This document shows positions 50,601-53,600 of a stretch of DNA of 64,000 nucleotides, piece after piece. The DNA comes from Leucoraja ocellata (taxonomy: Eukaryota), in assembly GCA_036785375.1 (NCBI GenBank), contig JAWMAR010000136.1:186001-250000 (forward strand), written 5' to 3'. The translations under genes and the position numbers were made by a program. Numbering within the stretch: the first letter of the stretch is position 1; every line of letters starts with the position of its first letter. The notes beneath the pieces are model-generated. The model was given only the letters and a program-made list of their open reading frames with translations. It ran no database searches and was not told the origin of the DNA.

Positions 50601-53600
50601 TTACTTTAAAAATGCATGATACTTTTAATTGACAATTCAGCCTTGACAAATGCTGTCAGCCTAATATGGGAGAATGGGTCTGAACAAGTCTACAAAAATG
50701 TTATTTAATTTTCAACTTATACTCGTTGTGAATGCAGCCACATTGTTAGTGTGGGATTTTGGGCATTGAAAAATTGTCTTCCTTCATAATAATCATGGGT
50801 ATGCATGAACTATTAGTATTTTTTATTCAAAGGGTTCCAGACTCTTTCAAAGCATGACTAATTATTATCAGTCTGAAGAAGGGTTTCGGCCCGAAACGTC
50901 GCCTATTTCCTTCGCTCCATAGATGCTGCTGCACCCGCTGAGTTTCTCCAGCATTTTTGTGTACCTTCGATCTTAAAGCATCTGCAGTTCCTTCTTGAAC
51001 ACTAATTATTATATTTGGAGTGTGTCGCCATATTTAGAAGATATTATTCTGGACCATTTTCTGGCAAGAGCATATATGTAGCTGAAATTATTATGTATAC
51101 ATTTATTTGTCAAATTTACACATTTAAAAATTGGTGTATTTTGATTTATCAGCTAGGTCCACTGTTTATAACCGACTGTTTCGATTGGCATGTTTTGAGT
51201 AAATGATGTAGGTGAGCCTCCATTTGAGACAACAAGCATAAGTATTTGATCTAATCATTCTGTGCTGATGTCTAGAGAAACTTTCCTTTCTGATATCTAT
51301 TTTCCTCTTCTATTTGCTGCTCTCTTTAGGATCTGTCTAAGGTACAGCTACAGTTATTTCACAGTCTCTTAAGTTGTGCTTTCTATTAGATACCTGCTTA
51401 ACAAAAGGACTAACATTCAGTTGGACAGACTACTTAAATTTTGGCTTCAATGTAAGAAATACAATTTGCAAGGGTGTTGAATTATAGTGCAGGCTGTTTT
51501 CTGAAATCTCAACTGCAGTTATATTAATTTATTTTGTTTCAAGTCTTTGCTGGGAAGTGATGTGGCACCTTCCAAATGAAGATCTCCGCATATATTTAAT
51601 GTTTGCTTTTTTTTGTTTCAATGTTGATTTGTTTAGTGTTATGTTAATTCTGAATAGAGTATGGGAGATTGATTCCGAAGCCACAGCACCAGTTTCCCTC
51701 CATCCTTCTCTATTGACCTGGTCAATTAATTAAGTGACTCCATTGTCAACATACCAATGCATAGCTTGCCTTCTAGTATTTTAGAATCATCGAGTCATAC
51801 AGCACAGAAACAGATCCTTTAGCCCAGTCAGATGGCGCGCAAAGACTTTGTACATCCCAAAACCCTGGGGCGCTGTGCGCGACCCTGCCTATGTCATCAC
51901 GCACCATGCATGTGTAATGTGCACCATGCGCACACCACGTGCGTGGCACGACGCTCGCGTTGTGACGCATAAATAATGTTGCGCAAATGACGCCCAAGTG
52001 GGACAGGCCCTTTAGGCCTTCCGCATTCGGCTGCAGCAGGGTGATGCCATCCGGTTCAACACCTGTAGGCGCCTACCCTAAAAAGGATGCATGCTCCGGA
52101 TTGGTGCCAAGCCGTGGCCACTGTGGTTGCATTAGGGCTGCAAGCTGCGGCGACTGAGGTTGCATTATTTCTACTGCTGTCTCTGTTTGTCGTCGTTCGA
52201 CTGACTGAAGTCAGTTGACAGGGCTCACCATGGGGAGGTCGACAACATGAGCCCCCATTATATAACTCCATGACTAATAGAACTCCGGTTGATGGTCCCA
52301 AAAAGCTTGCCCAATGACACGACAGGCACTTGCCCTTCCCAATTTTCTAAGAGTAGATTTGGCTTTTCCCTCTTCCATGCAGGACCTTCTACATATTGCC
52401 TGAAGAAACTTTCCTGAATACATTTGACAAATTCCACCCTGTCAAATCCCTTGGCACTATGACAGTTTGAGTCTATATTGAGAAAATGAAAATCCCCAAA
52501 TTGATAACCATCTAATCTAATTTCTTGTCATTTGTATGTGAGTCATGACTAAAAGTCCCAATGAGTTATTCTTGTATGTAATCTACCATCTGTGGAACAG
52601 GGCCAGTTGGCATATCTATGACAAGGAAGAAAACCCCATCTAATTTCCCCATCCAACATTCCACCTGATTCAATGCAAATCAGACATCATGGAGACCTGG
52701 TTGATAGGATTATAACCATGGTCCATCCTGCATGCTCACAGTTATAAAGTAATGGTAGAGTAAGAAAGACATATTTCTGTAGGTTTTTAGCGTATTTCAC
52801 AGAGAAGTCTCAAAAACAAGTCAAGTTGAATAATTATTTATGTGCAGTGGCTCTTAAAATGTGGCATATGCATAATAATTTCAGAATGTGAAACAGTAGT
52901 AAAATGCCTGCTATAATTAAAACAAAGATGTTTGCAATCATGGATTAGGAATATAGGGACACAACCATCTTATTTAGCCCTACGAGACACTTTTGGCTTT
53001 TGAGTGTTGTAATGGTTCACTTGTTATGTAATTCAAGGTACCCACTTCTGCCTCGTGTCATAAGAATTTTGGTTAACAAAAACCCATTGGAACCTTAATA
53101 TTAACAAAAATCAATTTCTAATTAGTGAGAGTGAGACCAAAACTTTGTTCTAATTTTTCTCTCCTAACTTCACTCCTTGCTTTAATTTTCGCCACTGCTA
53201 AGAATTGTAGAATCAGTAGAGATAGTTTCTTTCTGCTCCATTCGTTTTCTTCTTTTCTTGAACACCTCAGTTACAGTATATCATCCTGTTAACATAGCTT
53301 CTTAGGAACACAACTTCTGTTTGTATGTGATGAATCAACACCTATTCCTTTTCTAACATTTAGTGCAGAGAACATAGTACACCAAGGGTGGTCCAAGCAA
53401 AGTATCAGATACCTCTCAAACATCTCTAAGGGCCTGAAGAAGGGTCTTCACCCGAAATGTCACCTATTCCTCTTCTCCAGAGATGCGAACTGACTCGCTG
53501 AGTTACTCCAGCATTTTGTCTACATCTCCTACCTACTTGTATTCCAAAGCTCTGAAAATCTAGCAATTATCAAATGTTATTTTCAGCAGCATTTATGCCA

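What the first reader, a model, noticed from the sequence alone, without database searches (positions are those of the whole stretch)
50857..51012. Hammerhead-ribozyme mini-retroelement: 132-bp monomer with a perfect 12-bp target-site duplication
Seen: a 132-bp insertion flanked by ACTAATTATTAT on both sides. It starts with CUGAAGA-A-GGG(uuucgg)CCC-GAAA-CG-UC, i.e. all hammerhead core nucleotides, an extra A after A9, and a stem III reduced to the palindrome ACGU. Established: Penelope-like elements carry minimal type I hammerheads thought to act as dimers; an extra A between A9 and 10.1 is tolerated in the CChMVd hammerhead. Inference: this is a non-coding ribozyme-bearing unit mobilised by Penelope machinery, either a retrozyme-like family or a severely 5'-truncated PLE insertion. 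Caveat: stem I is only ~2 bp here, so activity is unproven.
Basis: partly seen in the sequence, partly recalled or inferred. Interest (0 to 1): 0.8.

Follow-up and report, generated by a model that had tools for sequence, protein, structure and literature searches.

The report
Truncated Penelope retrotransposon end with ribozyme
This is the clipped-off tail end of a common Penelope-type jumping gene in a shark or ray genome, still carrying that family's known miniature self-cleaving RNA motif, so it is an ordinary leftover rather than a new kind of element.

Summary
A 132-bp insert (50869-51000) sits between exact 12-bp repeats and carries all 11 hammerhead core bases, an extra A, a 4-bp stem II, the ACGU palindrome and a 2-bp stem I. 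It is one of 31 related pieces in the window (4.25% of it). The family is the 3' pseudo-LTR of a Neptune-type Penelope-like element (PLE). One older copy lies about 410 bp behind a GIY-YIG remnant. The read-through tail of a zebra-shark PLE gene model best matches this very hammerhead among 127,930 positions. Copies show PLE signatures: head-to-head inverted pairs, 9-12-bp TSDs and an optional ~36-bp tail. 5' ends of 23 scored copies run from about -880 to +61. None starts at the cleavage site and no tail-to-head unit was found, so the retrozyme reading fails. Core bases are no better conserved than the body, and the monomer is predicted to misfold. Best reading: a dead, severely 5'-truncated PLE insertion copied from uncleaved RNA. 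One hint remains: 7 of 23 5' ends fall at the hammerhead's 5' edge (P 0.08 after correction), which could mark an RNA start.

The parts
50857..50868 (+). Left target-site duplication, 12 bp, 92% AT, with 3 ATT/AAT words
50869..51000 (+). 132-bp insert: 3'-terminal pseudo-LTR segment plus tail of a Penelope-like element
   Evidence: family link
50871..50902 (+). Minimal type I hammerhead: stem I 50871-72 with 50901-02; CUGAAGA 50873-79; extra A 50880; stem II 50881-92; GAAA 50893-96; ACGU palindrome 50896-99; predicted cleavage after C 50900
   Evidence: sequence; descriptor; pair counts; same layout as PMC4209133 Fig. S3
50965..51000 (+). About 36-bp optional 'tail' (start approximate), present in some copies and absent in others
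   Evidence: two 3'-end classes, profile positions 92-106 (11 of 31 hits) and 131-136 (11 of 31)
51001..51012 (+). Right target-site duplication, 12 bp
56761..57144 (-). Supporting locus: decayed C-terminal GIY-YIG endonuclease with cysteine linker of a PLE
   Evidence: phmmer hit P0002, E 1.9e-6; blastp 34% over 116 aa; tblastn with shark PLE proteins E 3e-6 and 6e-7
56199..56287 (-). Supporting locus: older family copy about 410 bp downstream of the endonuclease remnant, behind a pyrimidine-rich 3' UTR
   Evidence: profile E 2.6e-7; 59/88 identical to the focal copy; sequence
57170..57369 (+). Supporting locus: inverted partner (UTR piece plus pseudo-LTR) joined head-to-head to the endonuclease-bearing copy
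   Evidence: (upstream homology, 0/200 shuffles)
2620..2873 (.). Supporting locus: head-to-head inverted pair with a 10-bp TSD (2620-29 and 2864-73); tail on one arm only
3355..3647 (.). Supporting locus: inverted copy plus partial tandem of two 3' fragments, with a 9-bp TSD (3355-63 and 3639-47)
45064..45167 (+). Host context: exon of a GRAMD1 (Aster) gene; the focal insert lies downstream in the same orientation, presumably in an intron
   Evidence: phmmer to PDB GRAMD1C/1A, E 7e-14; Pfam VASt E 0.014; the intron position is inferred, exons between 45167 and 57780 were not mapped

Best explanation
The insert is the last 132 nt (hammerhead-bearing pseudo-LTR segment plus tail) of an elasmobranch Neptune-type Penelope-like retrotransposon, inserted as a severely 5'-truncated, non-coding, now inert copy. 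Steps: (1) the PLE GIY-YIG endonuclease made staggered nicks 12 bp apart in AT-rich DNA (TSD shown; enzyme inferred). (2) The PLE reverse transcriptase, primed by the nick, started inside the RNA at the tail-end site about 120 nt behind the start of stem II (3'-end classes shown; internal start inferred from the anole PLE, PMC11167929). (3) It copied through the hammerhead, so the template had not been cleaved there (shown: 32 nt upstream of the cleavage site are in the insert). (4) Synthesis ended 4 nt past the core and the 5' junction was sealed, perhaps through a 2-nt microhomology (inferred). The hammerhead is inherited from the parent PLE, where it would cleave only as a dimer or with the PLE protein (inferred from PMC4209133, PMC11167929); this single copy is predicted not to cleave by itself. 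Confidence that it is a PLE terminal segment is about 0.93; the figure given is for the full reading including ordinary truncation.
For: Family size: 31 profile hits, 2718 bp, 4.25% of the window. Link to a PLE ORF: a copy at 56287(-) follows a GIY-YIG remnant by about 410 bp. The remnant's relatives are RT plus GIY-YIG proteins, named ones from Stegostoma and Chiloscyllium. A 12-residue stretch at the end of the Stegostoma model P0005, about 120 codons behind its endonuclease, scores best on the focal hammerhead among 127,930 six-frame positions; 0 of 300 shuffles reach that score and the top 7 positions are all family copies. PLE signatures: head-to-head inverted pairs, a partial tandem, TSDs of 12, 10 and 9 bp at 3 of 15 loci tested, and a tail on one arm only in 4 of 5 simple young inverted pairs. 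These match passages in PMC8557442 and PMC3846280. 5' ends of 23 of 31 hits, relative to C3: 6 reach further upstream (-11 to about -880), 7 at -7..+1, 5 at +5..+17, 5 at +41..+61. The three pieces 92-94% identical to the focal copy start at +12, +17 and +58. PMC4209133 reports that most minimal hammerheads are single motifs probably from truncated PLEs, and a single motif did not cleave. Folding of the 132-mer gives stem II pairing probability 0.0 and a competing hairpin about 0.7.
Against: 7 of 23 5' ends fall within 8 nt at the hammerhead's 5' edge. With the bin chosen after the fact this looks strong (Poisson 1e-6 to 1e-4); with a max-bin correction P is 0.08, or 0.43 using only junction-pinned ends. 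No copy of the focal subfamily with upstream sequence is in the window; the upstream-extended copies belong to other subfamilies (61-85% identity). The upstream extension of 6275(+) and 7449(-) was read by eye and did not pass the shuffle test; 3 of 55 pairs passed, one probably by chance. The three close relatives sit in one duplicated composite unit and are not independent. The P0005 peptide was picked by eye before scoring, and its DNA was not seen. 12 of 15 loci showed no clear TSD. A second intact-core copy also misfolds in the energy model, so predicted misfolding does not single out this copy. No copies from outside the window were obtained.
Confidence: 0.73

Rival explanations
1. Run-off unit with a defined 5' end. 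PLE transcription starts at the TCAGT just before the hammerhead. The RT starts internally at the first (5'-proximal) pseudo-LTR's tail site and runs off the RNA's 5' end, giving a ~130-bp 'strong-stop-like' product. Such solo units may be transcribed and re-copied in trans as a non-autonomous family.
For: 7 of 23 5' ends at -7..+1, five of them pinned by a TSD or an inverted partner. Two copies start at the same CAGT with unrelated flanks (50869, 21338). Internal RT initiation and a short minimal RNA are shown for the anole PLE (PMC11167929). Penelope has an internal TATA-less promoter in its pseudo-LTR (PMC2377424 passages). Pseudo-LTRs suffice in cis for mobilisation (PMC3846280 passage). 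TCAGT fits an initiator consensus (recalled, from no call).
Against: The cluster is not significant after correction (P 0.08 and 0.43). The ends in it are not one nucleotide (-7, -4, -4, -2, -1, -1, +1). Four of the five pinned ones are inverted junctions, where palindromes may drive the join. In D. virilis the start lies 46 bp before a 75-bp intron that ends at helix I, so well upstream of the hammerhead. 16 of 23 ends lie elsewhere.
Confidence: 0.16
2. Solo pseudo-LTR left by recombination between the two direct pseudo-LTRs of a once longer insertion; the TSD survives.
For: This would also leave an intact TSD around one repeat. Solo pseudo-LTRs are described, with recombination or deletion suggested for some (PMC3846280 passage).
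Against: Short arms of the same size occur in inverted pairs bounded by TSDs (2634-2866, 3359-3635), which direct-repeat recombination does not make. No full-length or two-repeat PLE lies in the window; tblastn finds only one endonuclease remnant.
Confidence: 0.07
3. Non-LTR retrozyme monomer: a hammerhead-cleaved, circularised RNA reverse-transcribed by PLE proteins.
For: Type I hammerhead, non-coding, TSD longer than 4 bp, as noted for metazoan retrozymes (PMC7229834 passage). Monomeric retrozyme homologues are reported, and retrozymes are found in one chondrichthyan (10.64898/2026.07.22.740005).
Against: 0 of 23 5' ends within +27..+31 and 0 of 14 tail-motif matches followed by a hammerhead head within 45 nt. 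The insert keeps sequence on both sides of the cleavage site in linear PLE order. The motif is the minimal PLE type, not the canonical retrozyme type. The unit continues upstream into a PLE UTR and ORF in other copies.
Confidence: 0.03
4. Chance resemblance: the hammerhead-like motif or the TSD is accidental.
For: Rfam finds nothing. Stem I is 2 bp. The core is not better conserved than the body among copies. The whole-element fold is no better than shuffles (z -0.32).
Against: 3 descriptor hits against 0.03 expected. Stem I pairs change on both sides between subfamilies (G-C 7, U-A 3, A-U 1; U-A 6, C-G 2, U-G 2); covariation score 0.317 with 2/500 shuffles, and all slid controls lower, though related sequences inflate this. 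Layout is nearly the same as the Acropora Neptune hammerhead in PMC4209133 Fig. S3. TSD null frequency 0.001.
Confidence: 0.01

Closest known systems
Minimal type I hammerheads of metazoan PLE pseudo-LTRs (PMC4209133), closest listed example Acropora digitifera Neptune
   Same: CUGANGA plus one extra nucleotide, G10.1-C11.1, 4-bp stem II with a tetraloop, GAAA-C-G-U-C with palindromic 15.2-16.2, short helix I, mostly single dispersed motifs.
   Different: Helix I is 2 bp and starts with U-G (3 bp in Acropora; 2 bp also occurs in Culex, Drosophila virilis and Oikopleura). No chondrichthyan is in that paper's Fig. S3 alignment.
EN+ Penelope-like elements of the Neptune clade
   Same: C-terminal GIY-YIG with a cysteine linker in the linked ORF, 3' pseudo-LTR with hammerhead, 5' truncation, inverted head-to-head partners, optional 30-40-bp tail, TSDs of about 8-12 bp.
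   Different: The focal copy keeps only the last 132 nt; no RT sequence is in the window; the clade was not tested by RT phylogeny.
PAc, Poseidon PLE of Anolis carolinensis (PMC11167929)
   Same: 3' end about 120 nt behind the start of stem II (111-118 in PAc), two 3'-end classes, AT-rich target with ATT words, uncleaved RNA as template, both-strand products.
   Different: In PAc the ORF starts at stem II; here there is no ATG at that place and the frame closes after about 23 codons. Different clade.
Metazoan non-LTR retrozymes (PMC7229834; 10.64898/2026.07.22.740005)
   Same: Non-coding, type I hammerhead, PLE-related, TSD longer than 4 bp.
   Different: No tandem units, no cleavage-site boundaries, minimal rather than canonical hammerhead, and colinear with a coding PLE.

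Membership tests
PLE minimal type I hammerhead | Core CUGANGA ... GAAA ... UH intact | tested here: met
   11 of 11 core bases
PLE minimal type I hammerhead | Extra nucleotide between 9 and 10.1; G10.1-C11.1 pair; palindromic 15.2-16.2 | tested here: met
   A 50880; G 50881 with C 50892; ACGU 50896-99; features as listed in PMC4209133
PLE minimal type I hammerhead | Helix I closing the motif | tested here: inconclusive
   Only 2 bp (U-G, G-C), pairing probability near 0; within the published 2-6 bp range; two-sided changes between subfamilies
PLE minimal type I hammerhead | Self-cleavage as a dimer or with protein | not testable with these tools
   Needs bench work; folding predicts competing hairpins
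EN+ Penelope-like element | Terminal repeat lies downstream of an RT-GIY-YIG ORF | tested here: met
   Met for the family, not within the focal copy: remnant before copy 56287-; shark model read-through
EN+ Penelope-like element | 5' truncation, inverted head-to-head or partial tandem arrangements | tested here: met
   23 scored 5' ends from about -880 to +61; 7 inverted pairs, 1 fold-back junction, 1 partial tandem
EN+ Penelope-like element | Optional 30-40-bp 3' tail | tested here: met
   Two 3'-end classes about 36 nt apart; one arm only in 4 of 5 simple young pairs
EN+ Penelope-like element | Short TSD at an AT-rich site | tested here: met
   12, 10 and 9 bp at 3 of 15 loci
Neptune clade | CX2-5CxxC linker before GIY-YIG (shared with Nematis) | tested here: met
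   Complete in P0002, P0006, P0008; partial in P0005 and in the window remnant; motif per PMC8557442
Neptune clade | RT phylogeny | not tested
   No RT in the window and no reference set on hand
Non-LTR retrozyme | Two or more head-to-tail units each with a complete hammerhead | tested here: not met
   0 of 14 tail-motif matches followed by a head; definition. The window only; the genome was not available
Non-LTR retrozyme | Unit boundaries set by cleavage or circular permutation | tested here: not met
   0 of 23 5' ends at +27..+31
Non-LTR retrozyme | Abundant linear and circular monomer RNA | not testable with these tools
   No transcript data
Non-autonomous PLE derivative with fixed ends | Shared 5' boundary across independent copies | tested here: inconclusive
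   7 of 23 within 8 nt; P 0.08 corrected, 0.43 for pinned ends only

The most novel reading that the evidence does not exclude
The ~130-bp unit is a defined product, not a random truncation: the PLE RNA starts at the TCAGT before the hammerhead, the RT initiates at the 5'-proximal pseudo-LTR's tail site and runs off the RNA end. This yields a strong-stop-like promoter-plus-ribozyme-plus-RT-start cassette that can be re-transcribed and re-copied in trans, and has come to fill several percent of a batoid or shark genome. It would explain how pseudo-LTR boundaries arise and supply huge numbers of natural junctions for reading the PLE mechanism.
Probability: 0.16. Interest if true: 0.55.

Novelty: new member of a known kind. 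Interest (0 to 1): 0.2.

Why it matters
As it stands it matters little: thousands of single minimal hammerheads from truncated PLEs are already reported per genome in fish, coelacanth and frog (PMC4209133). Its modest value is as an example. It extends the motif to a cartilaginous fish, a group absent from that paper's alignment, and it shows the anole in vitro geometry (tail-end start about 120 nt behind stem II, AT-rich target, uncleaved template, inverted products) in genomic copies of another PLE clade. If the 5'-end cluster proved real genome-wide, this very abundant family would become a ready data set for two open questions: how pseudo-LTR boundaries form and what the PLE hammerhead does.

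Tried and rejected
Rfam: 0 hits at gathering score over the window; one unrelated E 6.9 match at the locus. Two pattern scans of the bacterial and archaeal genome collection for stray copies: 0 and 0. Word-based protein search with the endonuclease remnant: 46 candidates, none significant; Pfam on the remnant itself: no family. Search with the open antisense frame of the insert, meant to show what lies upstream in other copies: 3 candidates, none significant. Two of four phmmer hits (P0001, P0004) are repetitive proteins and were disregarded. Whole-element folding is no better than shuffles, and cofolding two monomers gives no double hammerhead; energy models do not score hammerhead cores, so this is weak. 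A covariance model from 13 copies returned 22 matches at E up to 1, of which 15 at E below 0.001 are all known copies, 13 by construction; it added nothing new. A spliced-RNA origin (CAG as acceptor before the core, as in D. virilis) was considered; copies starting near -1 share no common upstream exon, so it is not supported. A bacterial promoter scan is irrelevant here and was at chance level. An 8-bp repeat at 45188/45272 was rejected as a TSD because it overlaps the core; a 7-bp one at 53420/53522 is only suggestive (null 0.07). Left unchecked: the host genome, Repbase/Dfam, transcript data, the metagenome and viral contig collections, cluster membership and names for P0002 and P0003, the 2017 RNA Biology paper on PLE hammerhead dimers (title seen only in a reference list), file 1 and part 3 of file 2 of the PMC4209133 supplement, and the supplements of 10.64898/2026.07.22.740005, whose tables of chondrichthyan retrozyme families and PLEs may already list this family.
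Full report
Observation. The window reads ACTAATTATTAT at 50857-50868 and again at 51001-51012, with 132 bp between; the repeat cannot be extended either way. Three of 3000 random flank pairs share a word this long. The insert opens with CAGT, then CUGAAGA (50873-79), an extra A, a 4-bp stem GGGU-UUCG-GCCC, GAAA, CGUC, and GC. All 11 core bases are intact. A strict descriptor finds 3 such motifs in the window, all in this repeat family, against 0.03 expected from 100 simulated sequences. 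Rfam finds nothing. The layout equals the published consensus of PLE minimal hammerheads and is nearly the same as the Acropora Neptune example (PMC4209133: main text parts 1-2 of 4; supplement file 2 parts 1-2 of 3). Helix I of 2 bp lies at the short end of the published range.

Setting. The window is animal DNA. An exon at 45064-45167 matches GRAMD1/Aster proteins, and the insert lies downstream on the same strand, presumably in an intron (inferred). The named relatives of the linked retrotransposon protein are from two sharks, so the host is taken to be an elasmobranch; the species was not determined. Penelope elements are listed for the whale shark (PMC8455134, one passage).

The family. 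A profile search gives 31 hits covering 2718 bp, 4.25% of the window, 18 on plus and 13 on minus (the first iteration also gave 31). Most are 61-89% identical to the focal copy; three pieces are 92-94% identical. 3' ends fall mainly in two classes, profile positions 92-106 (11 of 31) and 131-136 (11 of 31); the other 9 end at 81-88 or 116-122. The profile was built from some of these copies and stops at 137, which caps the second class. The gap of about 36 nt fits the optional 30-40-bp PLE tail (PMC8557442 passages; PMC3846280 passages). Many copies come as head-to-head inverted pairs. In 4 of the 5 simple young pairs only one arm has the tail; two further pairs could not be scored. Two such loci have their own TSDs, 10 bp (2620/2864) and 9 bp (3355/3639); with the focal one that is 3 of 15 loci tested, and 12 had none that was clear. 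Published PLE TSDs in the passages read are 8-10 bp.

Link to a coding PLE. On the minus strand, 56761-57144 is a decayed endonuclease. It hit P0002 (E 1.9e-6; 4 hits in all, 2 of them repetitive and disregarded), aligns to it at 34% over 116 residues, and P0002 carries a weak Pfam GIY-YIG match (E 0.0013). Longer relatives (5 of 96 candidates) carry GIY-YIG, four of them RVT_1 as well, and three of the five find the same remnant and nothing else in the window. About 410 bp further on, behind a pyrimidine-rich stretch, lies an older family copy (56287-, E 2.6e-7; 59/88 identical to the focal copy), and an inverted partner is joined at the 5' side. Independently, the Stegostoma gene model P0005 reads through its endonuclease into about 120 codons of low-complexity sequence and ends in a peptide that resembles a translated hammerhead. 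Scored against all 127,930 six-frame positions of the window, a 12-residue stretch of it ranks the focal hammerhead first; 0 of 300 shuffles reach the score, and the top 7 positions are all family copies. I chose that peptide by eye and did not see its DNA. The cysteine linker before the endonuclease points to Neptune or Nematis; the vertebrate survey found only Neptune and Poseidon (10.64898/2026.07.22.740005, parts 1-3 of 5), so Neptune is inferred. No RT tree was built.

5' ends. I scored 23 of the 31 hits by eye, and left out 8 that were old, internally deleted or at the window edge (29, 17187, 21575, 21788, 22582, 22704, 30827, 45195). Relative to C3: 6 reach further upstream (-11 to about -880), 7 lie at -7..+1, 5 at +5..+17 and 5 at +41..+61. 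Upstream homology is supported by shuffles for 48678/54515 and 56287/57286 (0/200 each); for 6275 and 7449 it rests on inspection only, and 3 of 55 pairs passed the test, one probably by chance. The three close relatives start at +12, +17 and +58 but belong to one duplicated composite unit. None of the 23 starts at the cleavage site (+29), and 0 of 14 tail-motif matches are followed by a hammerhead head. This fails the retrozyme definition of tandem complete units (PMC7229834 passages) within the window. The cluster at -7..+1 looks strong with a hand-picked bin but gives P 0.08, or 0.43 for pinned ends only, once the choice of bin is allowed for under a conservative null. It stays a hint.

The ribozyme. 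Across 16 copies that span the region, core positions match the majority base in 130 of 170 cells, stem II in 104 of 124 and the downstream body in 724 of 886. So the core is not better kept; truncated and misaligned 5' ends lower the core figure, and neutral decay of dead copies would give the same picture. Between subfamilies the two stem I pairs change on both sides, and the covariation score beats 498 of 500 shuffles and all slid controls, with the caveat that related sequences inflate it. That suggests the fold was kept in the source elements. For the focal copy the energy model prefers other hairpins (stem II probability 0.26 in the isolated motif, 0.0 in the 132-mer), and the ACGU duplex is worth only about -3 kcal/mol. 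Published single minimal motifs did not cleave and dimers cleaved weakly (review passages PMC6765202). The anole PLE hammerhead needed the protein, and cleavage was not needed for insertion (PMC11167929, parts 1-2 of 4).

Mechanism. [quoted passage not shown] The focal copy fits: a 92% AT target with 3 ATT/AAT words, a 3' end 120 nt behind the first G of stem II, and 32 nt retained upstream of the cleavage site. I conclude that it is a target-primed, severely 5'-truncated PLE insertion (0.73). PLEs are described as 5'-truncated on insertion (PMC8969392 passages), and most minimal hammerheads as single motifs from such copies. Rivals: a run-off unit ending at an RNA start (0.16; Penelope has an internal promoter, PMC2377424 passages; the initiator match is recalled), a solo repeat left by recombination (0.07), a retrozyme monomer (0.03), chance (0.01).

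Novelty. The kind is known. I found no description of this elasmobranch family in eight literature searches (listings only, apart from the papers named above), and no shark or skate name in the searched supplement of PMC4209133. That is weak: Repbase and Dfam were not available, most subscription papers are not held, and the closed supplements of the 2026 preprint cover one chondrichthyan and may list it. No copies from outside the window were obtained, so all boundary statistics rest on 64 kb. Verdict: new member of a known kind, interest 0.2.

Noticed in passing
window 21338-21900 and 22441-22640: A composite unit occurs three times, once inverted: a piece of the focal subfamily, a GT/G-rich spacer, then a second pseudo-LTR variant whose hammerhead has lost stem II and GAAA by an internal deletion, then (GA)n. 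It may be a small non-autonomous PLE derivative.
   Followed up: partly
window 22430-22470: Fold-back junction centred in the near-palindromic stem II region of the focal subfamily; the same palindrome forms the hairpin that competes with stem II.
   Followed up: partly
window 2864-2866 and 51001-51002: In 2 of the 3 TSD-bearing loci the TSD begins with AC or ACA, the letters that continue the tail in other copies; possibly short pairing between the nicked target and the RNA at priming.
   Followed up: no
window 56715-56728 and 57434-57447: An exact 14-bp AT-rich direct repeat: one copy in the last codons of the endonuclease remnant, the other just past the inverted arm. Chance, or an insertion into the element's own ORF end.
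   Followed up: partly
window 48017-48130 and 48590-48780: The upstream UTR of copy 48678(+) seems split: a further stretch homologous to the UTR of 54515(-) lies about 460 bp earlier.
   Followed up: partly
window 50873 and 53434: Two sense-strand copies with all 11 core bases lie 2.56 kb apart in the presumed GRAMD1 pre-mRNA; a heterodimeric hammerhead is conceivable but has only 2-bp stems I and is unlikely.
   Followed up: no
window 45191-45269: An old family copy starts about 25 nt after the splice donor of the GRAMD1 exon.
   Followed up: no
window 39754-40881: Tc1/mariner-like remnant: 163-nt inverted arms at 90% and a Sleeping Beauty-type HTH, E 2e-5.
   Followed up: no
window 7420-8499: Two reading frames that look like the 3' part of a LINE reverse transcriptase (FADD motif, recalled); Pfam gave no RT match. 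It abuts family copy 7449(-).
   Followed up: no
window 13023-13210, 29317-29491, 30293-30482: A repeat with tRNA-like head boxes, probably a SINE (inferred); ARAGORN calls no tRNA in the window.
   Followed up: no
window 9753-10830: A 61-nt near-perfect palindrome followed by three GC-rich repeats of about 310 bp.
   Followed up: no
protein P0002: A predicted protein joining a DUF4518 domain to a PLE cysteine linker and GIY-YIG endonuclease; a gene-model fusion or a captured domain.
   Followed up: no
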